56,076 nucleotides of DNA from a virus (Duplodnaviria > Caudoviricetes). Where the stretch lies: the IMG/VR virus record IMGVR_UViG_3300034093_001920, positions 1 through 56,076 of that record. One strand, given 5' to 3'. A model generated the notes under the pieces. The model did no database searches, had not been told where the DNA came from, and saw only the letters and a list, made by a program, of their open reading frames with translations. Below are positions 12,662 through 53,201 of this stretch, in pieces (the stretch's first letter is position 1; each line of letters begins with the position of its first letter). A program made the position numbers and the translations under genes.

Positions 12662-12706
12662 AAGAGCGGGAGGTTGGTACCCCTCCGACCTCCCGCTCTT
12701 ATCTTT
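12662..12706 (+). terminator. Intrinsic terminator after ssb
   Basis: 16-bp stem (one G-U) 12662-12677/12685-12700, followed by ATCTTT. Confidence 0.7.
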
Positions 12707-32638: not shown

Positions 32639-32686
32639 AAAAAAACCCCCATGCCATCCCGATTAGGGACAGCATGGGGGTTCTTG
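32639..32686. terminator. Bidirectional intrinsic terminator
   Basis: Stem 32644-32654/32672-32682 with an A-run on the left and TTCTT on the right, between convergent operons. Confidence 0.8.
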
Positions 32687-36044: not shown

Positions 36045-36052
36045 GACACTCC

Positions 36053-36325
36053 TTACGGACGGGCTATGGATAAGTTCGTCCGTAAGACAGGGATGCTCGC
36101 CGCCGACATTCTCACGCTTGCTTCGAGCATGATACTTGCTACGGATACTCGAAGTACATCAGCAATCGACTCAATAATCTCTTCCGATGTGGATGTGACT
36201 CCGCGCTCGGTGTCGGAGATAGTGGCGATAGAGATGTACCCAAAGTTAGATACATCCGTGAGGGTCAATCCGTGAGACTGTCTAATCTCACGGATGACCT
36301 GTCCTACATAGTCGCGGAACTTCAC
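36053..36325 (-). CDS. XRE/Cro-like HTH regulator
   Basis: G..IREIR...GLTL.DVS....IS..TISD.ERG. Confidence 0.85.
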   Translation of the reverse strand: MKFRDYVGQVIREIRQSHGLTLTDVSNFGYISIATISDTERGVTSTSEEIIESIADVLRVSVASIMLEASVRMSAASIPVLRTNLSIARP

Positions 36326-37854: not shown

Positions 37855-38069
37855 TAGTCAGCCTTACGGATGATGTGGGTCAGGGTGTCCGTAAGGTTGC
37901 GGAGAGTCTCTACAACTCCGTCGGATTCATCCAGAAAGACCCACTCACCGAGGTCATCATCCCAAGTGTCGTGCTGAAACCGCGCCTCGGCGGTGTCGCT
38001 GTCCACATAGAACTTGCCGTCCGTGTGGTCGTACTTTACAACGAAGTATGTTTCCAAGTTGCTTGACAT
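37854..38069 (-). CDS. Hypothetical acidic protein
   Basis: GAGGAG SD. Confidence 0.55.
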   Translation of the reverse strand: MSSNLETYFVVKYDHTDGKFYVDSDTAEARFQHDTWDDDLGEWVFLDESDGVVETLRNLTDTLTHIIRKAD

Positions 38070-39080: not shown

Positions 39081-39479
39081 TTAGGACAGTCCGTCAATAA
39101 TCTGACGCAGTTCTTCGATGAGTTCCTGATGTTTCTCAATGATGATGAGCAGGATGCTGGCAGGGATTCCCACCACAGGGTCATCCCTACGGATGACTGC
39201 GATGCGGTCGAGTTGTTCTTTGGTCAGGATGTCTTTGAGCGACTCACGAATACGCGCAGTAACCTCTTCTACCTTGCGCTTGCGCTCCTCTTCGCGTTTG
39301 CGGTCATCCGCCTCGCCTAGTTCATCCTCAACGGTGCGAGGCACAGGCATCTCATAAGGCTTGCTCGGCACGCGACTGGTTTTCCAACCGCTGTTCTTGT
39401 GTGGGTACTCCCATGTACATTGACCAGTTTTGAGGTAAACCTCGTCCTGTTGACCGCAGTAGGGGCAGTTGGGGTACAT
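39081..39479 (-). CDS. Hypothetical protein (zinc finger + coiled coil)
   Basis: MYPNCPYC start, AAGGAG SD. Confidence 0.55.
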   Translation of the reverse strand: MYPNCPYCGQQDEVYLKTGQCTWEYPHKNSGWKTSRVPSKPYEMPVPRTVEDELGEADDRKREEERKRKVEEVTARIRESLKDILTKEQLDRIAVIRRDDPVVGIPASILLIIIEKHQELIEELRQIIDGLS

Positions 39480-39489
39480 TGGGTTCTCC

Positions 39490-40035
39490 TTATTCTCCGA
39501 AGAATGTCGGTACGATGCGTGCTGTGCGCCCTCTGTCCGTGTAGTAACGAATATCCGCGCTGTTGACTTTCTTTTGGGCAAGAGCGAGGCTACCACACCA
39601 GTTGGATGCGAAGTATTCTCCGACTGTCGGATGTCCGTCGGCAATAGCCTTGTCGCGTTTGTCTTCGATGTTTTTGATGCGTTCAGCGATGTTGTCTCGC
39701 GCCTCGGCGTATCTCTCAACCGAATACCACTTGGCGTTGCTGTCGATGGCTGACAAGATGTTCCTAGTTTTGTCTTCCTCGCTCAACCAGTTCCATGCGC
39801 TGATGCGGTTAGTGTCGCTGACATTCTCGGCGTACATTTGTTCGGCAATCTCTTCTGGGGTCTTGTTGTGACTTTCCCAGTTATCGTTCTCATTGTCTAT
39901 CAACCTGTTGAGGTCAGCGATGTACCCCTCAATGCTTTGGGGGCTTATCTCAATCAGGTGGGTGTACTCGCGGAACGAACTGCGCTTGGCAATCGTGCCG
40001 TCAGCAAGTTCGACTTTGTAATGAAACTTTGGCAT
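39490..40035 (-). CDS. Hypothetical protein
   Basis: AGGAG SD, 181 aa. Confidence 0.65.
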   Translation of the reverse strand: MPKFHYKVELADGTIAKRSSFREYTHLIEISPQSIEGYIADLNRLIDNENDNWESHNKTPEEIAEQMYAENVSDTNRISAWNWLSEEDKTRNILSAIDSNAKWYSVERYAEARDNIAERIKNIEDKRDKAIADGHPTVGEYFASNWCGSLALAQKKVNSADIRYYTDRGRTARIVPTFFGE

Positions 40036-40044
40036 GGTGTTCTC

Positions 40045-40152
40045 CTAGTAGGACTGGTGGATAGCGACAAGCAGGTTACGGATAGCAGGAACAAGTCCGA
40101 AGTGCTTACGGACAACGCGGAAATCGCGAATGGCTTTGCGGATGTCTAGCAT
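40045..40152 (-). CDS. 35-aa basic peptide downstream of the ncRNA
   Basis: AAGGAG-N6-ATG, MLDIRKAIRDFRVVRKHF... Confidence 0.5.
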   Translation of the reverse strand: MLDIRKAIRDFRVVRKHFGLVPAIRNLLVAIHQSY

Positions 40153-40185
40153 GGGCATCTCCTTATGGATGTCTAACGGATAGAA

Positions 40186-40660
40186 TGGGGAGACAAGTTT
40201 GTGTCGGTCTCCCCAACGACAGCCCAGTTTCTCAATACCATGTGGCAGGGCACACTCCCCTCGTTGATACTTCGGAGAGGCAAACACTTCTACCACGCGA
40301 CCGAGGGGCGTACCCACCGCATCTCCTAGACTGCTCTACAACATCTCCCATAGGGCAAACAGCCCAACCCCTATGGCGTATCCTGTGTTATTCCGACACC
40401 ACACCCCACAGGCAAGGTATGGTGAAGTTGTCGATGCGGATTCGGAATCCTTGCTTGGAGTTTCTCGTACTCCCGAGGCGTTACGACTTCGCCCGATGCT
40501 GTCGGACACGGATGTCCGACAGAATAATGTGAGCAGTTGTTTCGACATACTCGGGTCGCTCCTCGGTGGCAATCGCTTGTTCTAAATAATGGCACTCAAC
40601 CTGAACAAGCGAACCACCGAGGAGTGGTGTTGAGTGAGGTCAGTTTTCCGCCGTGACCTA
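40186..40660 (-). ncRNA. Large structured non-coding RNA candidate (~480 nt)
   Basis: About 10 stems plus several loop and long-range complements in the only long gap of a tightly packed operon. G-U pairs favour the minus strand. Confidence 0.7.
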
Positions 40661-40667
40661 GGGGGTT

Positions 40668-41324
40668 CTAGCGCGCATCCAACTGCGCGTACATCTTCTC
40701 GACCAGTTCCTCGAACAACTTGTAGTCGAGGGAGACACTACCCGAGAGTGTGGGGTCTGCCTTGGTGCGCTGTTCATCGAGCCAGCGGTGGCTGTCCTGT
40801 CGGATGTGGATGTTTATCTCTCGGTCAGCAGGGTCGAACTTCCGACCGAGGAGACCCTCTACGGTGTCACGGACACTCGTAGTGCGAGACTCTGCCTCAC
40901 GCCGACCACGCTCTTCTGCCTCTTGGATGATTGAGCGTGTGCGCGCATCTTCCGCATCTTGGTCTTCTTTTGCCTTGGCGTAGTCATCCCACAACTTCTG
41001 GGTCGTGGTGTCGTACACTCCGAGAATGGTCTGACCGTCAACGAGGGTCTTGACCTTTTCGACCGAGCCGTCTTGCTTTGTCATCGTGGTCGTGATGTAG
41101 TACCGCTTGGTGCGCGACTTGGGGTCAGTCGGTGTCCAGAGGCTACTGGCATCCGACATGGCGCGCCAGTACAGCCCTGACCAATGAGGCTTTTGGAAGT
41201 TGGCGTGAGATTCGAGGACAGCGATGACCGAGTTGGTCATGTTGGCTCGGTGTAGTTCGCTGGCGCGCTCGGATACAACAATCTTCGAGCCGACTGGGAT
41301 TGCGAGGACTTCTGCGTGTTTCAT
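40668..41324 (-). CDS. Hypothetical protein (directly upstream of the ncRNA)
   Basis: AAGGAG SD, 218 aa. Confidence 0.65.
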   Translation of the reverse strand: MKHAEVLAIPVGSKIVVSERASELHRANMTNSVIAVLESHANFQKPHWSGLYWRAMSDASSLWTPTDPKSRTKRYYITTTMTKQDGSVEKVKTLVDGQTILGVYDTTTQKLWDDYAKAKEDQDAEDARTRSIIQEAEERGRREAESRTTSVRDTVEGLLGRKFDPADREINIHIRQDSHRWLDEQRTKADPTLSGSVSLDYKLFEELVEKMYAQLDAR

Positions 41325-41369
41325 GGTTTGGTTCTCCTTATGGATAGTTGAGGTGTTGCTTACGGACGG

Positions 41370-41888
41370 TTAGACGATGCGACAATGCGTGAGGATAGTC
41401 GAGGTCGAGCCTCGGAAGTCATCGACTCCCTTGACCTTACCCACTATTGTAACCTCGTCACCCACGGCGAGGTCGTTCACCCAGTCGCGTGTCGTGAATG
41501 TCTTGACTCGGTGCTTGTCGTTGATGAAGACGAGCAGGGTTGTTCCACCAAAGCCCGAGTAGATGTCGCGCTTGGAGTCGAGCCGACCTGTGAACCGAGC
41601 CTTGTCACCAACGCTTACGGACAGAGCCGTCAGAGTATCCGACAGGGCACGCTGGGCATTGAGATACGGTGTCGCGATGTTGCGGATGCGGTCGATGAGG
41701 AATGATGCTCCCGATGAGTTGATGCCGTCAAGAGTGTCATCCTCGATGCCAACTGCTTGGACGAGTTTGAGTGCGTACCCCAACTGCTTGTCCGATGCTG
41801 GGTAGCGCGAGGACATGGTGCGTGCCGTGGCAAGAGTCTCACGGACAGCCTCGATGTCGGCATTGGTGAGGAGTTCGGTATCAGTCAT
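41370..41888 (-). CDS. Protein with C-terminal OB-fold-like domain
   Basis: 'ASDKQL' motif; VGDK..F.G...GDEVTI.GKVK...Y/F.G...T.LT. Confidence 0.55.
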   Translation of the reverse strand: MTDTELLTNADIEAVRETLATARTMSSRYPASDKQLGYALKLVQAVGIEDDTLDGINSSGASFLIDRIRNIATPYLNAQRALSDTLTALSVSVGDKARFTGRLDSKRDIYSGFGGTTLLVFINDKHRVKTFTTRDWVNDLAVGDEVTIVGKVKGVDDFRGSTSTILTHCRIV

Positions 41889-42023
41889 GAGTTTGACCCC
41901 CTAGTGTGGTAAAGCAGTCGTGGCAAAGGATGTCGAAGTTTAGATACCCAGTACGAGTCCACTCCGAGCCACCCCATTCGGGAATGGTAAGTTGCGTACA
42001 GCGTTCGCAGGTTTCGAGTTCAG

Positions 42024-42248
42024 TCATGATTGGTCTCCTACGAAGTTGAGCAGAGGGGTGATGTTCCCCTCGCGGTCTAGGGCGAGTTCGATGTTGTCGC
42101 GGATAACGCTACGACCGTTGGCAAGAAGAATCTCGATAACGATTTCACGGAATCGCTCGGCGGTAGGCGTGTACCCCTTGCCGTATCCCTCACCTACTTC
42201 ATAGGCAAGAGCATCGAGAGCGAGGTTGTTGGTGAGTTCTTTGGACAT
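42024..42248 (-). CDS. Hypothetical protein
   Basis: MSKELTNN start, AGGAG SD. Confidence 0.55.
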   Translation of the reverse strand: MSKELTNNLALDALAYEVGEGYGKGYTPTAERFREIVIEILLANGRSVIRDNIELALDREGNITPLLNFVGDQS

Positions 42249-42268
42249 GATTGTTCTCCTGATGTTTG

Positions 42269-42303
42269 TGTCGGACAGCCTCACGGATAGAGGCTGTCCG
42301 ACA
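42269..42303. repeat. 14-bp perfect inverted repeat built from CGGACAG motifs
   Basis: TGTCGGACAGCCTC-N7-GAGGCTGTCCGACA. Confidence 0.85.
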
Positions 42304-42309
42304 GGGTGA

Positions 42310-44196
42310 TTAGTTTGCGAGGTTGCGGGCTGTCGCGGTTGCGACCAACTCGCGACCGAGAGCGATGATGCCTCGGACTTCGCTGATGTCGGCAACGAAC
42401 TCGAATCCGTGGTCGTTGTCGATGCGGTAGCCTGTGTTGAGATTGACGAGACCTGTAAGGACTCCGCCGAGGCGCAGGTCACTCGCAATCTTGTCGCACT
42501 TATCTTCGCTCTCCCATTGACCGTCCGTAATCGTAAGCATGACCTTGATTGCTCGGGTCGAGTCAGCGAGGATGCCTTGTGCTTTGGAGAGACCAACGAG
42601 AGGTTCAGTACCACCGCTGTGGTGGCTGTGTCGCATCTGACTGGTCGCGCTGTCACCCGAGCCGTAGAGGACTTCCGAGTCCGAGGCAAAGGTGATGACA
42701 GTCGTGCTGGCGTTCACCGTGTCGAGTGCGCGCTTGACCGCCCACATCGCCTCGAACGCCTCACGGCGAACACCGCTCATTGAGCCAGAGACATCCAGCA
42801 GGACAACACACTCGATGTCCACAGCATCCTCACGACCAACCTCGAATCGGTCGAACGCGGTGTCGAAGTCCTTGTCTGCCAGCCAGCGACCAAGGTTGAC
42901 CTTGCCAGACGAGACCTGCCTGTTCCAGCCAGAGTCGTGCTTGGCTTGGAGTTCTTCGAGGACTCGGGCAAAGCCGTTGGATGCTTGTGCCGTCTCGGGA
43001 GTGACCGACTCCATGTCGTAAGTTGCCTTACGGATGTTCTGGTCGACTCCGTTGAGGGGGTTCTCCATGCCGTTGATAGCGTTGGCATCGTTGATGATGT
43101 CTTCCCGAGCCTCGTTCACAACCTTGTCGAGAGCATCGCGGAGAGTGTCGACAATCGACTCGCCAGTTCCAGCACCCTGACCGTCAGAGGGCTGGTCATC
43201 GTCCGAGTCATCGTTCGACTGTGGAGCAGGGTTGCTCGGTGACGGCGACTTGTTTGTGCTGGGCGTGCTGTCGGATGAATCGTCCGTAGGCTGTCCGTTA
43301 GAACCGCCCGACTCTTCATCCCCGTCCGAATCCGAGTCGCTCGGAGCAGGGTTGCTCGGAGCAGGTTCGGGTGGAGCAGGGTTGCTCGGGAACTGTGGCT
43401 CGGGCTGGTTGCTCGGCGCACGCTCGGAATCCTTGGACTGTTCGGACTGGGGTACAGGTCGAACCGACCCCGACTCCTGTGACGAGCCACCCTTACATCC
43501 ACCCTCGGGCGGAGTGAACTGATTGAGCAGGTGGTAGAACTCTTCGAGCAGAGCCTCGCCTCGGTCGTTGTCCTTGGGGAAGACGAGAAGACGGTACTCG
43601 TCAATCACTCGGGCAAGGTCGGGCATGAGTTCGGGTCGAGCGAACTTGTCGGCAACTGCCTGTCGGACATCCAACGGCAGGTACTTGCGACCATGAGTCA
43701 GGATGAACGCTCCCGATACATCGTCCTGTCCGAGAATCAGAGTGAGGACGGTTGGGGTGAGCCAGAGTCGTGCCGACTTGCCCCAGCGACCAGTCGCGAG
43801 AGTCTCGATGCGCTGGTCTTCGAGGATGTTGAGTTCGCGAGTGTAGCCGTTGTCGATTGCGAACTTGGTGATGCCAGCACCCTTGCGAGGCGTGTACAGG
43901 ATGTGGAGCATCTCGTGGACGGACAGACCCTTGTTGGATGCGATGTCCGACAGGCTGTCGAATGAGAGCGACTCGGAGTCGAACCAGATTTGCGTGGGAA
44001 TCGACCAAGCAGGGGCAGGTGCTTTGCCCGAGGCGCGAACATCGTGGAGCGTGACCTTGATTGGAGACCAAGTGTCGAGCGACTGCTTGACCACGGTGTT
44101 GATGAACTTACGGCTGTGTTCGATGAACCGAGCCTTGCGCTCGGCATCGGGGTCGACAGCCGACAATGGGCTGGACTGGAAGTTGGGGGTAGACAT
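42310..44196 (-). CDS. vWA-domain protein with N-terminal HExxH domain (CobT-like)
   Basis: HEMLH...N.LED.RIE, acidic/Pro linker with SNPAP repeats, MIDAS DVSGSM, GGT, ITDG. Confidence 0.88.
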   Translation of the reverse strand: MSTPNFQSSPLSAVDPDAERKARFIEHSRKFINTVVKQSLDTWSPIKVTLHDVRASGKAPAPAWSIPTQIWFDSESLSFDSLSDIASNKGLSVHEMLHILYTPRKGAGITKFAIDNGYTRELNILEDQRIETLATGRWGKSARLWLTPTVLTLILGQDDVSGAFILTHGRKYLPLDVRQAVADKFARPELMPDLARVIDEYRLLVFPKDNDRGEALLEEFYHLLNQFTPPEGGCKGGSSQESGSVRPVPQSEQSKDSERAPSNQPEPQFPSNPAPPEPAPSNPAPSDSDSDGDEESGGSNGQPTDDSSDSTPSTNKSPSPSNPAPQSNDDSDDDQPSDGQGAGTGESIVDTLRDALDKVVNEAREDIINDANAINGMENPLNGVDQNIRKATYDMESVTPETAQASNGFARVLEELQAKHDSGWNRQVSSGKVNLGRWLADKDFDTAFDRFEVGREDAVDIECVVLLDVSGSMSGVRREAFEAMWAVKRALDTVNASTTVITFASDSEVLYGSGDSATSQMRHSHHSGGTEPLVGLSKAQGILADSTRAIKVMLTITDGQWESEDKCDKIASDLRLGGVLTGLVNLNTGYRIDNDHGFEFVADISEVRGIIALGRELVATATARNLAN

Positions 44197-44245: not shown

Positions 44246-44279
44246 GACGGCTGACGGACACCCCTATCCGTCAGCCGTC
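44246..44279. repeat. 13-bp perfect inverted repeat between the AAA and vWA genes
   Basis: GACGGCTGACGGA-N8-TCCGTCAGCCGTC. Confidence 0.8.
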
Positions 44280-44291
44280 CGTAAGCCTCGG

Positions 44292-45596
44292 TTAGACCGA
44301 GGCTGTGAACGCGATGCCCAACTCGCCACAGATGTTCGAGGCGTTGAGGTCGAGCGTGTTGGCGATGCCACCACGGTCTGGAACTTTCATCGAGTTCAGG
44401 AGAGAGTGTCGTGCGAACTCCCAGCCCAACTCCGTGTTGCTCACGAAGTCTTTGAGTACTCGGGTCGAGAAGATAGAACTGAACTCGCCCAACTCGTACT
44501 GGTCGCGGATTGCGAACGCGACATCCAACAGCGACTTGCTGGGGATGAACTTGGACTCGATGTCGCGGTCATAGGTGAACTCGACCTTGATGCCGTAGCG
44601 GTCGAGGAACGCCTCGTCTGGCTGTGCGACTCCCTTGTAGTTCCAGTTGCCGTCAGCGATAATGAGGCACTCGGGGTGAATCTTGATGACCTGCCCCTTG
44701 TCTCGGGTCATGCGAATCTCGCGCTCCATGAGAACAGCGAGGAAGTACGAGTTCGCCTTGGGAGACATACGAGTTGCCTCGTTGATGAGGACAACGGACG
44801 GCTGTTGGATAGCATCCACCAGCGCGCTGTTGCGCCACTCGAAGTGCCCCTCGGCAGTCGGTATGAGTTCGCCCTGAATCTGCCCCTCGTCCATGCTCGG
44901 GTCACAGTTGACCGTTGCGAACGGCACGCCACGGCGCGATGCCTGACGGCGCGCGCTGGTCGACTTGCCAGTTCCAGCGTGACCGCCGACCCAGACATTC
45001 CGTTGCTCACGGAGTGCCTTGTCGAAGAACGCATCCTCGGGTGTGCCAGCCACGACTCGTGGAATGTAGCCAGCGATGTCGGGGTCAGTCGGCAACGGAT
45101 AGAGCAGAGTCGAGTAGGCGTGAACCAACTCGGGCTGTCGGACAGGCTGTACGACAGGCGGTGCGACCTGTACGACAGGCGCGACTGGTTCGACTGGGAC
45201 AGGCGGAGCGACAGCGACAGGTGGAGCGATGTTTGTGCTGGGCGCACCTTGTCCGTTGTACACGGAATCGAAGACAGGCTCGACAGGCGTGCTTGTCATC
45301 GTGGTGTCAGCGCGAACCTTGCGCTCGATGCTTTGGAGCAGGGTGGCTGGTTTCTCGCCAGCCTTGACCTGCTCGATGTTGTTGTCGGTCAGGGTGACGG
45401 TCAGCGGTGTGCCGACCAACATCTCGCCCATGTCGAATGTTGGGATGTCGAAGTTCCACGCGGTGTGGACTCCTTGACCTGCGCCGTTGTGTCGGGTGTA
45501 CACAATCGGGTCTCCGTTCGAGTCGTGAATCACGACTGTCTGTCGGATAGGGCTGTCGTATGAGGTACGACTCTGGATGATGCTTGCGGTGTTCAT
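44292..45596 (-). CDS. MoxR/CbbQ/CobS-type AAA+ ATPase
   Basis: GHAGTGKS, LINEA, N..Y.G...DEAFLDRY, STR. ATG 45596 with AAGGAG SD. Confidence 0.88.
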   Translation of the reverse strand: MNTASIIQSRTSYDSPIRQTVVIHDSNGDPIVYTRHNGAGQGVHTAWNFDIPTFDMGEMLVGTPLTVTLTDNNIEQVKAGEKPATLLQSIERKVRADTTMTSTPVEPVFDSVYNGQGAPSTNIAPPVAVAPPVPVEPVAPVVQVAPPVVQPVRQPELVHAYSTLLYPLPTDPDIAGYIPRVVAGTPEDAFFDKALREQRNVWVGGHAGTGKSTSARRQASRRGVPFATVNCDPSMDEGQIQGELIPTAEGHFEWRNSALVDAIQQPSVVLINEATRMSPKANSYFLAVLMEREIRMTRDKGQVIKIHPECLIIADGNWNYKGVAQPDEAFLDRYGIKVEFTYDRDIESKFIPSKSLLDVAFAIRDQYELGEFSSIFSTRVLKDFVSNTELGWEFARHSLLNSMKVPDRGGIANTLDLNASNICGELGIAFTASV

Positions 45597-45630
45597 GTTG
45601 CTCTCCTTGGTTGGGGTTACTTGGTTGGGG

Positions 45631-45861
45631 TTACTGCTTGGGCAGGGGGTGAGAATCGGTGAGTCGGGCGGTGAGGTCATCGCCCCAGAACATGGTGTCG
45701 AGGTTGTACACCGTGTCGGACAGAACGACCAGTCGCTCACGGACAACATCGCTGTTGCGAGTCGTGAGGTCGAATATCTTGGCTCTGCGGTTCAGGTAAA
45801 CATTGACGAGTTCATCCCGAACAATTCGGGCTGTCTTGCGGTCAAGGGTGATGTCGGTCAT
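45631..45861 (-). CDS. Hypothetical protein
   Basis: AAGGAG SD. Confidence 0.6.
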   Translation of the reverse strand: MTDITLDRKTARIVRDELVNVYLNRRAKIFDLTTRNSDVVRERLVVLSDTVYNLDTMFWGDDLTARLTDSHPLPKQ

Positions 45862-46417: not shown

Positions 46418-46704
46418 GCTTGCGCCTCGACCGTCTGGCGTGCCTTGGCAATCGCATCGAAGATGATGCGCTTGCGCGCTCCCTTGGGCATCGACTGGTA
46501 GAAGTCGAAGTCGACTGTTTCGAGAGACTCGGCAATTCGGTTCACCAGTCCGTAAGCGGTGAAGAGGACTTCTTCCTCGTCCTTGGTGAAGTGCCAGTAA
46601 TCGCCACCGACTACGGCAGACGGCGAGAGTTCGAGGTGCGTGGAGAAGAGGTACGCGATGATGCGTGCGTACTCTTCGCGACTTGGGGTCAGGTCAATCA
46701 TCAT
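46414..46704 (-). CDS. First gene of the leftward operon, hypothetical
   Basis: AAGGAG SD. Confidence 0.6.
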   Translation of the reverse strand: MMIDLTPSREEYARIIAYLFSTHLELSPSAVVGGDYWHFTKDEEEVLFTAYGLVNRIAESLETVDFDFYQSMPKGARKRIIFDAIAKARQTVEAQA

Positions 46705-46731
46705 GGGTCGGTCTCCTTGGGGTAGAGGAAT

Positions 46732-46936
46732 GGGGAGCGCACGATGCGCCCCCCAACAGATACAACAATACGCCTACGCCCCAACCACGATGACGATAGG
46801 TCGAAACTAATTCGAGGAGTTTCAGACCGACCAATCGAGGCGAGGCGAGACGAGAATCGGGGAGCGCGTATTGTCGCGCCCCCCAACAAAGACAACTTTA
46901 CGCCTACGCCCCAAGCAGGATGACGATAGGTCGAAA
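46732..46936 (-). repeat. Two ~75-bp direct repeats (promoter + GC hairpin), 130-bp period
   Basis: 46732-46806 compared with 46859-46936. Confidence 0.85.
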
Positions 46937-47131
46937 TTGCCCAAGAAATAATGTTTACCTGAAATCGCCCCTATCGTCATCGTAGATGGGGTCGTATGGT
47001 AGGGCGGGGGTTCGAGGGGGCGGCAGCCCCCTTATACCACAACACCCCAACTAGGATGACGATAGAGAGAAAGAGAATAAGAGAGAGAGGGAGAGAATAG
47101 TACACCCCGACCCCAACTAGGATGACGATAG
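46779..47131. promoter_or_regulatory. Five copies of a 21-bp motif, CCCCAWNNANGATGACGATAG
   Basis: At 46779, 46909, 47045, 47111 and inverted at 46971. -10-like hexamers sit 8 nt downstream. Confidence 0.8.
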
Positions 47132-47525
47132 CCCCAAACTGTTACCTGATAGTAACATTCGACCTGTACCGTAGACCTGGGGTCACCAGCGACCGTCTGA
47201 GCCGATTTAGCCACAGTAGCCATAATTAGTCACCTCGACCGCGTTAGCCCGTCAGACAGGCGCGTACGGTCTTACGGACGGTCTGTCCGACAGCCCCCAC
47301 CCGTTACCGCAACCCGCGAGATGGCCCCCCAGGTCAGACGCCCAGGTAACGATGGTCATCCTAGGCAGTAGCCAAGGTGGCCCGTGTAAGCCATTGAGCG
47401 CCCCTGCAGCAAGGCCAAGGTGTCAGTTGGCGTAGAGAGAGTGTATACCCCCGCCAAGGACGCCAGAGGAGGGCTGAGGGCCTTTTAGAGGGTTATCCTA
47501 AGGTCGCCCCTGCTATCCTGAAGAC

Positions 47526-53159: not shown

Positions 53160-53201
53160 AAGAAGGCCCCCTAGCCAATAGGCTGGGGGGCCTTATCTTT
53201 T
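53160..53201. terminator. Bidirectional intrinsic terminator
   Basis: Stem 53163-53176/53181-53194 between convergent genes. Confidence 0.8.

What the first reader, a model, noticed from the sequence alone, without database searches (positions are those of the whole stretch)
40186..40660. Large pseudoknot-rich phage ncRNA candidate (~480 nt) in the early operon
SEEN: the only ~500-bp gap in an operon of abutting genes is full of complements. Stems (+ coordinates): 40637-42/40654-59; 40559-69/40614-24 (11 bp) stacked on 40573-82/40603-12 (10 bp); 40499-508/40513-22 (10 bp, UCCG loop on the minus strand); 40457-61/40469-73; 40348-55/40369-76; 40257-63/40302-08; 40187-94/40207-14. The loop of the long stem (CACTCAAC, 40593-600) complements 40629-36 outside it, giving an 8-bp pseudoknot. 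A nested helix 40390-96/40442-48 + 40397-405/40416-24 has a loop pairing with 40382-87 (H-type pseudoknot) and a bulge (40433-39) pairing with 40317-23. A long-range helix joins 40531-37 and 40330-36. Several helices need G-U pairs that form only on the minus strand, matching the flanking genes. KNOWN: phages carry large ornate RNAs (GOLLD, ROOL, tmRNA). I see no tmRNA ends or intron core here. INFERENCE: possibly an undescribed large RNA class (scaffold, decoy or ribozyme), perhaps working with the upstream 218-aa protein.
Basis: partly seen in the sequence, partly recalled or inferred. Interest (0 to 1): 0.9.

Follow-up and report, generated by a model that had tools for sequence, protein, structure and literature searches.

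The report
Hairpin-rich non-coding spacer in phage operon
A 509-base stretch between two genes of a lake-water phage is truly non-coding and carries a few very strong hairpins and one conserved segment, but it looks like a patchwork of gene-control signals rather than one large folded RNA of a new kind.

Summary
The listed complements are real: 13 of 13 stems check out. Local perfect hairpins are far above chance: 6 against 0.29 in shuffles, reached by 0 of 300 shuffles and 0 of 227 other windows. The long-range and pseudoknot pairings are at chance level (7 against 4.8; 59 of 300 shuffles reach it).

The folding signal sits almost entirely in the 5' 173 nt, stems H1 to H3 (z -6.81). The 283-nt centre folds no better than shuffles (z -0.84). 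Both strands fold equally well (-195.1 and -195.0 kcal/mol).

The interval is non-coding. Coding scores are negative in all six frames. The one nearly open frame holds a TAG. A relative's gene call matches the window only by hopping between reading frames.

The 3' 120 nt, just upstream of the next gene's ribosome site, is conserved in two relatives (36 of 38 and 35 of 38 determinable bases). The centre drifts near the neutral rate.

There is no Rfam match, no DNA of a close relative covering the interval, and no RNA data.

Best reading: a composite control region between cistrons, not one large pseudoknotted RNA. A discrete new ncRNA is not excluded (about 0.2).

The parts
40159..40667 (-). 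Whole non-coding spacer (509 nt) between the 218-aa gene and the 37-aa ORF of the minus-strand operon
   Evidence: Sequence. Coding score is negative in all six frames for every sub-segment, whereas real in-frame 159-nt segments score -6 bits or less in only 3.5% of 312 samples. No Pfam or PHROGs family for its ORFs. No Rfam match.
40637..40659 (-). H1: 6-bp hairpin with an 11-nt loop, starting 8 nt after the stop codon of the 218-aa gene
40559..40624 (-). H2: bulged hairpin with an 11-12-bp lower stem, a 10-bp upper stem and a 20-nt loop. It is the dominant structure of the interval
   Evidence: Perfect arms. The 100-nt window 40540-40639 has z -6.76 on minus and -6.86 on plus.
40593..40636 (-). 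8-nt loop segment of H2 (40593-40600) complementary to 40629-40636, just 5' of H2. Read here as an alternative pairing, not a pseudoknot
   Evidence: Perfect 8-bp complement. Only 4 nt separate the 5' arm from H2, so coexistence with the full H2 is judged sterically implausible (my inference).
40499..40522 (-). H3: 10-bp hairpin with a UCCG loop on the minus strand, made of two inverted copies of the genome-wide 10-mer CTGTCGGACA
   Evidence: The motif CTGTCGGA occurs 26 times against 3.1 expected, and the palindromic 9-mer TGTCSGACA has 15 exact copies.
40306..40498 (-). It has no significant fold and drifts at about the neutral rate
   Evidence: 40216-40498 has z -0.84, and 41 of 200 shuffles fold as well. 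At determinable positions, 68-78% are identical to relative P0134, with frame-hopping indels. The neutral proxy is 66-74%.
40348..40376 (-). H6: 8-bp hairpin with a 13-nt loop. It is the only central helix with a hint of compensation
   Evidence: Against P0134, 0 of 8 pairs are excluded. One pair is a determined A-U to G-C change. Three more pairs change on one side, with the partner being an undetermined third-codon base. One sequence only, so this is weak.
40186..40305 (-). Conserved 3' block of 120 nt (3' half of H7, a linker and H8), ending 22 nt before the ribosome-binding site of the 37-aa ORF
   Evidence: Determinable positions identical: 27 of 31 (40305-40252) and 36 of 38 (40251-40186) against P0134; 18 of 23 and 35 of 38 against P0133. 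Its fold is not significant: 40183-40318 has z -1.24, and 22 of 200 shuffles fold as well. Coding score is -5.6 bits and ranks 3rd of the six frames.
40186..40215 (-). H8: 9-bp G+C-rich hairpin with a 12-nt loop, followed by AUUCUAUCC (no U-tract)
   Evidence: All 9 pairs are unchanged in P0133 and P0134. Not called terminator-like.
40045..40158 (-). Downstream 37-aa ORF (or 35 aa from ATG 40152) with AAGGAG at 40164-40159. It is the first gene after the spacer
   Evidence: Coding score +12.8 bits, the best of six frames. About 86% identical over the 35 aa from the second ATG in relative P0133 (my count on the alignments).
40668..41324 (-). Upstream 218-aa gene with no family. It evolves fast
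   Evidence: Four relatives among 5.8 billion proteins, 43-57% identical, all ending at the same residues.
42269..42303 (-). Comparable 14-bp hairpin built from the same motif, between the stop of the VWA gene and the next ribosome site
   Evidence: In relative L002, changes on both arms leave an uninterrupted 13-bp stem.
44246..44279 (-). Comparable 13-bp hairpin between the AAA-ATPase gene and the VWA gene

Best explanation
The interval is a true non-coding spacer inside a co-directional early or replication-type operon of an uncultured lake-water tailed phage. It is a composite of three parts, not one large RNA.

(1) The first 173 nt after the stop codon of the 218-aa gene carry three very stable stem-loops, H1, H2 and H3. 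H2 is a two-turn (21-22 bp) bulged hairpin. I infer that these act on the polycistronic transcript as processing sites, 3'-end protecting hairpins or partial stop signals. That would uncouple expression of the upstream AAA/VWA/218-aa genes from the small downstream genes. The same kind of hairpin sits behind the stop codons of the AAA and VWA genes. H3 may in addition, or instead, be a DNA site, because it consists of two inverted copies of a motif scattered over the whole genome.

(2) The centre, about 190-280 nt, has no significant fold and drifts at about the neutral rate. It is most simply spacer, or the relic of a lost small gene.

(3) The last 120 nt, ending in hairpin H8 just before the ribosome-binding site of the 37-aa ORF, are under purifying selection at the nucleotide level. 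I infer that they are a cis-acting leader that controls transcription read-through, stability or translation of the downstream genes.

Shown: non-coding status, hairpin excess, where the fold signal lies, and the block-wise conservation.
Inferred: action at the RNA level, and the specific roles.
For: Non-coding.
- Every sub-segment has a negative coding score in all six frames: ORF-A -14.8 bits, ORF-B upstream part -6.3, 3' block -5.6. The adjacent 37-aa ORF scores +12.8. In real genes the true frame ranks first in 96% of 312 sampled 159-nt segments.
- The gene called here in the source record (ORF-A, P0006) found only itself among 5.8 billion proteins.
- The nearly open frame has an in-frame TAG. 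Its openness is not unusual: P 0.09 for the sense frames and 0.23 for six frames.
- The relative's 113-aa gene call P0134 aligns best with frame switches, even at a penalty of -16. The block VVTPR..QARI matches another frame of the window (9 of 13 residues, my count) and about 2 of 14 in frame.

Composite structure.
- 5' part 40495-40667: z -6.81, 0 of 200 shuffles.
- Centre: z -0.84.
- 3' block: z -1.24.

Conservation.
- 3' block: 27 of 31, 36 of 38 and 35 of 38 determinable bases identical.
- Centre: 68-78% identical.
- Neutral proxy, four-fold sites between the window and L002: 76 of 116 and 67 of 90.

Recurrent hairpins behind genes.
- By my reading of the 23 perfect repeats of at least 9 bp against the gene map, about 11 lie in roughly 15% of non-genic sequence. 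These include 42269-42303 and 44246-44279, directly after the VWA and AAA genes.
- The post-VWA hairpin stays perfect in L002 through changes on both arms.

Other points.
- No iterons in the interval. An iteron-like region lies elsewhere, at 46720-47140.
- No sigma-70-like promoter or U-tract terminator in the interval.
Against: - There are no RNA data at all. No listed run is RNA, so transcription, processing and strand are unproven.
- Folding energy does not favour the minus strand: -195.1 against -195.0 kcal/mol, with the plus strand z stronger and its ensemble better defined (45.6 against 108).
That pattern also fits DNA-level palindromes.
- H3 is made of a motif found 56 times in both orientations, 41 of them inside genes. 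That points to a DNA-level role for that element.
- Conservation was read indirectly, from back-translated gene calls of only two relatives. The neutral rate was calibrated on a third lineage. The search was anchored on the best-conserved block.
- The low divergence of variant X9 in the interval (1 substitution and 1 insertion in 225 nt) extends into the adjacent 218-aa gene (0 differences in 151 nt). It therefore reflects mosaicism, not selection specific to the spacer.
- Nothing shows which nuclease or factor acts on the hairpins. The host is unknown.
Confidence: 0.45

Rival explanations
1. A discrete phage non-coding RNA of an undescribed class. It could be the whole ~480 nt, or a ~130-nt RNA formed by the conserved 3' block and ending at H8. 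It would be cut out of, or transcribed within, the early operon and would act in trans as a regulator, decoy or scaffold.
For: - Non-coding.
- No Rfam family.
- Overall z -4.05.
- 3' block conserved at 87-95% of determinable positions.
- H6 shows one determined A-U to G-C change, and none of its pairs is excluded.
- Two determined C-to-U changes in the 5' arm of H7 would keep pairing as G-U on the minus strand only. This is my reading of the alignment printed.
- The UCCG loop of H3 fits the UNCG tetraloop class on the minus strand (class recalled).
Against: - The centre folds no better than shuffles, and so does the conserved 3' block.
- Long-range and pseudoknot pairs are at chance.
- 2 of 5 covered pairs of the outer nested helix and 1 of 8 of the inner one cannot pair in P0134.
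- The centre drifts at about the neutral rate with several indels.
- No promoter or terminator was found.
- A covariance model of the 3' block finds only itself in 1.13 Mb of related loci.
- No DNA match in 78 distant relatives' full records or in 50,697 phage records.
Confidence: 0.2
2. A DNA-level control region. The palindromes (H3, and perhaps H2 and H8) would be protein-binding sites, for example operators for the operon's own HTH regulator. The conserved 3' block would be a promoter or operator for the downstream small genes.
For: - Both strands fold equally, and the listed stems are almost pure Watson-Crick.
- H3 is two inverted copies of a motif over-represented about 9-fold genome-wide, in both orientations.
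- Palindromes of the sister motif CTTACGGAC flank or overlap the HTH_3 regulator gene 36053-36325.
- The conserved 3' block has no significant fold.
Against: - Most hairpins have long loops (11-20 nt and more). That is unlike dimer operator sites or cruciforms.
- No sigma-70-like promoter in 39400-41400 on either strand. The host is unknown, however, so this is weak.
- No iterons.
- The 41 motif copies inside genes argue against simple operators.
Confidence: 0.17
3. Protein-coding after all: one or two small genes in minus frame 2. ORF-A runs from ATG 40548 and ORF-B from GTG 40317, behind AGGAG. They could be still active, or recently inactivated in this lineage while intact in the relative that carries the 113-aa call P0134/P0135.
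For: - Frame 2 has only one stop (TAG 40338-40336) between 40581 and 40045.
- The relative's frame is open for 113 codons and reads a sense codon at the TAG position.
- ORF-B's start context AGGAGAUGC repeats that of the 37-aa ORF (D3).
- The major conserved blocks return to the same frame after each hop.
- In-frame 'amino-acid' identity is about 55-58%, like the neighbouring 218-aa protein (57%).
Against: - Coding scores are negative and not the best of the six frames.
- ORF-A has no homologue, and there is no Pfam or PHROGs match.
- At least one frame-hop pair is robust, and probably three exist, in 113 codons.
- A further frame change after H8 in P0134 (my reading).
- A 1-nt insertion in natural variant X9. 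It comes from a single contig at depth 3.2, so it may be an error.
- The TAG sits in a stretch that a second run, X3, covers without any difference.
- The openness of the frame is within chance.
Confidence: 0.1
4. No function: leftover sequence that happens to hold hairpins.
For: The centre looks neutral.
Against: - The hairpin excess was reached by 0 of 300 shuffles and 0 of 227 other windows.
- The 3' block is conserved well above the neutral proxy.
- A sister hairpin is maintained through changes on both arms.
Confidence: 0.05

Closest known systems
RNase III processing hairpins between the early genes of coliphage T7
   Same: - Long, internally bulged hairpins of about two helical turns, in non-coding gaps between co-directional phage genes. 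H2 has 11-12 + 10 bp.
- No U-tract after them.
- They recur behind several genes of the same operon.
   Different: - No cleavage data, unknown host, and no sequence similarity claimed.
- H2 has a 20-nt loop, and the other hairpins are only 9-14 bp.
- Membership cannot be tested with these tools.
Intercistronic stabiliser or attenuator hairpins in bacterial operons (such as REP-type elements; recalled)
   Same: - Perfect G+C-rich palindromes just after stop codons.
- Built from a short motif repeated many times in the genome (H3 and 42269-42303).
   Different: Here 41 of the 56 motif copies lie inside genes, in both orientations. REP elements are extragenic.
Large ornate RNAs GOLLD, ROOL and OLE (PMC12286853; seen only as a search listing with the start of its abstract)
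   Same: - Phage or lake-water context.
- Several hundred nucleotides of non-coding sequence containing hairpins.
   Different: - No match to any Rfam 15 model at gathering score, nor at E <= 10 apart from two miRNA chance hits.
- The fold signal is limited to three hairpins, the centre is no better than shuffles, and no covariation is shown.
Leader RNA elements of phage early operons (lambda nut and HK022 put type; recalled)
   Same: A conserved non-coding segment with a hairpin inside an early operon, upstream of downstream genes (3' block and H8).
   Different: - No sequence or structure match was tested, and none could be.
- No antiterminator gene was identified nearby.
- The fold of the block is not significant.

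Membership tests
Any Rfam 15 family (including large ornate RNAs, riboswitches, ribozymes, introns, tmRNA) | Covariance-model score at or above the family's gathering score | tested here: not met
   0 matches in the whole 56,076-nt window at gathering score. At E <= 10 over 39900-40900 there are only mir-4887 (19.6 bits against 70) and mir-582 (16.2 against 84), both on hairpin H2. ARAGORN finds 0 tRNA or tmRNA.
Large structured ncRNA (new class) | A fold more stable than shuffles over the whole length | tested here: not met
   Whole interval z -4.05. The centre 40216-40498 has z -0.84 and the 3' block z -1.24. The signal comes from 40495-40667, at z -6.81.
Large structured ncRNA (new class) | Helices supported by covariation in homologues | tested here: inconclusive
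   Only degenerate back-translations of two relatives' gene calls were available. H6 has 1 determined compensatory pair. The outer nested helix has 2 of 5 covered pairs excluded and the inner one 1 of 8. H7 and H8 are unchanged. No relative's DNA of the interval could be fetched.
Large structured ncRNA (new class) | Pseudoknots and long-range helices beyond chance | tested here: not met
   Complements of at least 7 bp more than 50 nt apart: 7 against 4.8 +/- 2.1, and 59 of 300 shuffles reach it.
Protein-coding gene | Codon statistics of this phage, and a reading frame conserved in relatives | tested here: not met
   All six frames are negative. There is an in-frame TAG. Homology to P0134 hops between frames. 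ORF-A has no homologue.
Intrinsic (U-tract) terminator | G+C-rich hairpin followed by a run of U | tested here: not met
   The scan of 39400-41400 finds 2 sites, both on the plus strand inside genes and none in the interval. Shuffles give 2.3 +/- 1.5. H8 is followed by AUUCUAUCC.
T7-type RNase III site | Intercistronic hairpin of about 20 bp or more with an internal bulge | tested here: met
   H2 has 11-12 bp + 10 bp separated by a small internal loop, and starts 43 nt after the stop codon. This is geometry only.
T7-type RNase III site | Cleavage by RNase III in vivo or in vitro | not testable with these tools
   No RNA run holds the sequence.
Replication origin or iteron region | Several direct repeats (iterons), usually with an A+T-rich stretch | tested here: not met
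   Only two-copy direct repeats of 8-14 nt in 40100-40700. A real iteron-like array lies at 46720-47140.

The most novel reading that the evidence does not exclude
The interval, or at least its conserved 3' ~130 nt ending in hairpin H8, is released from the early transcript (for example by cleavage at H2 or H3). It would then act as a stand-alone phage non-coding RNA of a class absent from Rfam. It is conserved at the nucleotide level in a small clade of lake-water phages, while the neighbouring 218-aa protein has diverged to 57% identity.
Probability: 0.2. Interest if true: 0.55.

Novelty: new member of a known kind. Interest (0 to 1): 0.3.

Why it matters
If the composite reading is right, this is ordinary phage operon punctuation: hairpins behind genes plus a conserved leader. 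Its main value is for annotation. The gene called here in the source record (P0006) is probably spurious.

Two points have some wider use.
- Gene calls made on non-coding DNA of relatives can be used to detect nucleotide-level conservation through frame-hopping when the relatives' DNA is out of reach.
- This phage clade keeps a 120-nt non-coding block, and perfect hairpins behind genes, under selection. It also carries a strongly over-represented 8-10-nt motif family of unknown function. These are testable handles on gene regulation in an uncultured freshwater phage group.

A new large RNA class, the reason for the original high score, is not supported by the present evidence.

Tried and rejected
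Homologue hunting for the interval itself
- blastn 'distant' against 50,697 phage records: no match.
- blastn and nhmmer against 79 fetched loci: only one 46-nt match, 72% identical, E 1.5.
- BLAST against the full records of 78 distant relatives: only 14-26-nt matches, best per-genome E 0.02. L002's record was not held and so was not searched.
- Covariance model R1 of the 3' block over 1.13 Mb: only itself.

Fetching close relatives' DNA
- Single-protein scans of viral contigs with the 218-aa, 181-aa, AAA and VWA proteins: none.
- Alignment A1 (218-aa family) in metagenome contigs: one locus, L002, which ends inside the 218-aa gene and so lacks the interval.
- A1 in viral contigs and genome contigs: none.
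- Alignment A3 (frame-2 translation plus P0133 and P0134) in viral contigs and genome contigs: none.
I did not call it.

Expression and cover in public runs
- No RNA holder is listed among the 24 runs.
- The laid contigs are short and of low depth. Parts of the interval have no cover in some runs.

Variant X9
- I first read its low divergence in the interval as constraint. I rejected that, because the adjacent 151 nt of the 218-aa gene are also identical, so the pattern is mosaic.

Genome end or terminal repeat
- Considered and rejected. In relatives with terminal repeats the AAA/VWA module lies 15 kb or more from the contig ends.

Alternative genetic code
- Considered and rejected. The flanking genes end in TAG, and the relatives of the 218-aa protein end at the same residues.

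Slid-partner control for helix compatibility
- Low power, and biased towards the window-derived structure. I did not use it as support.

Other
- Shared sequence between the interval and the second structured region at 46.7-47.4 kb: only an 11-nt motif match.
Full report
SETTING. The window is an IMG/VR virus record: linear, with a CheckV completeness estimate of 58%. Runs holding it are labelled lake-water or freshwater metagenomes. Genes on the minus strand between about 32.7 and 46.7 kb form one co-directional array. Upstream of the finding lie an AAA_5 (CobS-like) ATPase at 44292-45749, a VWA (CobT-like) protein at 42310-44196, a 172-aa protein, and the 218-aa protein at 40668-41324, which matches no family. 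Downstream lie a 37-aa ORF behind a perfect AAGGAG, a 181-aa protein, and many small genes. These include an Api92-like protein, a pyrimidine-dimer glycosylase and an HTH_3 regulator. The interval 40159-40667 is the largest stretch within this array that lacks coding signal.

THE OBSERVATION. The 482 nt fold better than shuffles on both strands: minus -195.1 kcal/mol at z -4.05, plus -195.0 at z -6.78. Against 232 sliding windows of the phage, the interval ranks 2nd on the minus strand and 4th on the plus strand. What is exceptional is the number of local perfect hairpins. There are six of at least 8 bp with loops of at most 50 nt. Shuffles give 0.29 and other windows 0.27, and none of 300 shuffles or 227 windows reaches six. 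Long-range complements of at least 7 bp number 7 against 4.8 +/- 2.1, and 59 of 300 shuffles reach that. The long-range helices and most pseudoknot claims are therefore what chance gives. Only one listed stem has a G-U. The MFE folds of the two strands have the same number of pairs (156) and of G-U pairs (13). The minus strand is therefore not singled out by pairing.

WHERE THE STRUCTURE IS. In a scan of 26 windows of 100 nt, only 40540-40639 (H2) is strongly stable on both strands, at z -6.76 and -6.86. The next strongest are the two plus-strand windows over H3, at -2.66 and -2.97. The 5' 173 nt (H1, H2, H3) give z -6.81, with 0 of 200 shuffles folding as well. Removing H1 and H2 leaves z -2.58 on minus and -3.30 on plus. 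Also removing H3 and H8 leaves z -0.84, with 41 of 200 shuffles folding as well. The proposed nested helix, the H-type pseudoknot and the long-range helices all lie in that unremarkable centre. H3 consists of two inverted copies of CTGTCGGACA. That motif belongs to a family that is strongly over-represented in the window: CTGTCGGA 26 observed against 3.1 expected, and CTTACGGA 30 against 2.8. The family occurs in both orientations, with 41 of 56 copies inside genes. The perfect pairing of H3 therefore follows from the motif and need not reflect selection for an RNA helix.

CODING OR NOT. Minus frame 2 is open from 40581 to 40045 except for one TAG at 40338-40336. ORF-A (ATG 40548), ORF-B (GTG 40317) and the 37-aa ORF all lie in this frame. 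ORF-A was called as a gene in the source record (P0006), but it finds only itself among 5.8 billion proteins. I searched the read-through translation (P0132) with phmmer against 1.84 billion representatives. Besides P0006 it found two gene calls from relatives. P0133 is 79 aa and 81% identical, and covers the 3' part of the interval plus the 37-aa ORF. P0134 is 113 aa and 58% identical, spans the TAG position, and reads a sense codon there. P0135, a near-identical member of P0134's cluster, lies on the 7,604-bp contig that also carries P0002, the 57%-identical relative of the 218-aa protein.

At first sight this looks like the 'conserved translated ORF' that would refute an RNA. It is not one. 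A frameshift-aware alignment of P0134 to the window's DNA prefers frame switches at 40488 and 40444, even at a penalty of -16. There the relative's VVTPR..QARI matches another frame of the window (9 of 13 residues, my count), against about 2 of 14 in frame. At a milder penalty two more hop pairs appear, one of them shared with P0133. By my reading, P0134 changes frame again after H8 and stops within the ribosome site of the 37-aa ORF. The homology is therefore at the nucleotide level.

Coding statistics agree. Every sub-segment is negative in all six frames: ORF-A -14.8 bits, the ORF-B upstream part -6.3, the 3' block -5.6. The adjacent 37-aa ORF scores +12.8 and ranks first. Among 312 real in-frame 159-nt segments, only 3.5% score -6 or less, and the true frame ranks first in 96%. 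The openness of frame 2 is within chance: P 0.09 for the three sense frames and 0.23 for six. There is no Pfam or PHROGs match. A residual possibility remains that a small gene is intact in the relative and decayed here. I give it 0.1.

CONSERVATION. I back-translated P0133 and P0134 along the frame-aware alignment and counted only fully determined bases.
- 40509-40440: 28 of 36 identical to P0134.
- 40439-40370: 28 of 36.
- 40369-40306: 17 of 25.
- 40305-40252: 27 of 31.
- 40251-40186: 36 of 38 to P0134, and 35 of 38 to P0133.

As a neutral yardstick I used L002, the one relative with DNA. Its VWA is 81% and its 172-aa protein 84% identical to the window's at the protein level. Its four-fold sites are identical at 76 of 116 and 67 of 90. 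The centre thus drifts at about the neutral rate, with several small indels. The last 120 nt, ending in H8, are clearly constrained. This block has no significant fold (z -1.24). The caveats are two relatives only, indirect reading, a yardstick from another lineage, and a search anchored on the best block. Variant X9 has 1 substitution and 1 insertion in 225 nt of the interval, against 31 differences in 695 nt of flanking genes. However, the adjoining 151 nt of the 218-aa gene are also identical, so this is mosaicism.

HELIX TESTS. With P0134, H6 has no excluded pair and one determined A-U to G-C change. The bulge helix 40433-39/40317-23 has no excluded pair. The outer nested helix has 2 of 5 covered pairs excluded and the inner one 1 of 8. 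H7 and H8 are unchanged. This is too little to support or reject individual helices.

CONTEXT. Long perfect hairpins are a habit of this operon: 14 bp right after the VWA stop (42269-42303, built from the same motif as H3) and 13 bp after the AAA gene (44246-44279). In L002 the post-VWA hairpin differs on both arms yet keeps an uninterrupted 13-bp stem. That shows selection for pairing in this class of element. None of these hairpins has a U-tract, and downstream genes follow within tens of bases. They are therefore not simple terminators. In 78 distant relatives, phages of about 90-100 kb (several records with terminal repeats), only the AAA/VWA module and a few other genes are shared. In at least L003 and L006 the Api92-like gene follows VWA directly. 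The segment holding the 172-aa gene, the 218-aa gene, the interval and the 37-aa and 181-aa genes is therefore specific to a small clade. An iteron-like array that could be an origin or operator lies elsewhere, at 46720-47140.

CONCLUSION. The interval is real, non-coding and not random, but it is best read as three parts:
- a cluster of hairpins behind the upstream gene (H1 to H3);
- a drifting spacer;
- a conserved 120-nt leader with H8 ahead of the next gene.

I put 0.45 on this cis-acting, mainly RNA-level reading. I put 0.2 on a discrete new ncRNA, 0.17 on DNA-level sites, 0.1 on coding and 0.05 on no function. Known comparators are the RNase III sites between T7 early genes and intercistronic stabiliser hairpins (both recalled). 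It is not a member of any Rfam family. It does not meet the tests for a large ornate RNA of the kind reviewed in PMC12286853, which I saw only as a listing.

Noticed in passing
window 46705-47525: ORF-free divergent region between the minus-strand array and the plus-strand genes. It holds five copies of GATGACGATAG, one of them inverted and forming a 12-bp repeat at 46919-30/46970-81. Some of the copies lie inside two ~60-nt direct repeats that start near 46731 and 46851. This is iteron-like, so it is a candidate origin or operator region. The overlapping window 46666-47145 is the top window for minus-strand folding (residual z -3.41).
   Followed up: partly
whole window, e.g. 36052-36086, 37862-37896, 40499-40522, 42269-42303, 47271-47294: A motif family CT(TA/GT)CGGA(C) is strongly over-represented: 56 copies, with CTTACGGA at 30 against 2.8 expected and CTGTCGGA at 26 against 3.1. 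It occurs in both orientations, with 41 copies inside genes and 15 between them. Copies often come as inverted pairs that form hairpins at gene junctions. Its function is unknown.
   Followed up: partly
window 36053-36325: A 90-aa HTH_3 (Cro/CI-type) regulator gene. Palindromes of CTTACGGAC and CATCCGTGAG at 36052-36086 and 36253-36296 overlap its ends. These are possible operator sites.
   Followed up: no
window about 42032-42254, against L002: A ~223-nt segment that carries one small gene is present in the window and absent from relative L002. The break points lie at two similar ribosome-site and start contexts, so this looks like a clean gene-cassette gain or loss.
   Followed up: no
window 41881-42027: A 48-aa ORF with two Cys-x-x-Cys pairs (zinc-ribbon-like). 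It is conserved in L002 and has no Pfam or PHROGs family.
   Followed up: no
window 39557-39561 (181-aa gene), run X9: A natural variant has a 1-nt deletion and a 1-nt insertion 4 nt apart. This is a compensated frameshift inside a real gene, within a patch that has 20 differences in 187 nt.
   Followed up: no
window 12662-12700, 32644-32682, 53163-53194: Perfect 13-, 11- and 9-bp G+C-rich hairpins flanked by short A and T runs, at operon ends or after a structural gene. They are probably terminators, two-way where the flanking genes converge.
   Followed up: no
window 40140-40180: UAGACAUCC occurs twice on the minus strand, 27 nt apart. One copy lies just before the ribosome site of the 37-aa ORF and one at its codons 2-4. 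A related GGACAUCC lies in H3. Both copies read as Leu-Asp-Ile in relative P0133.
   Followed up: no
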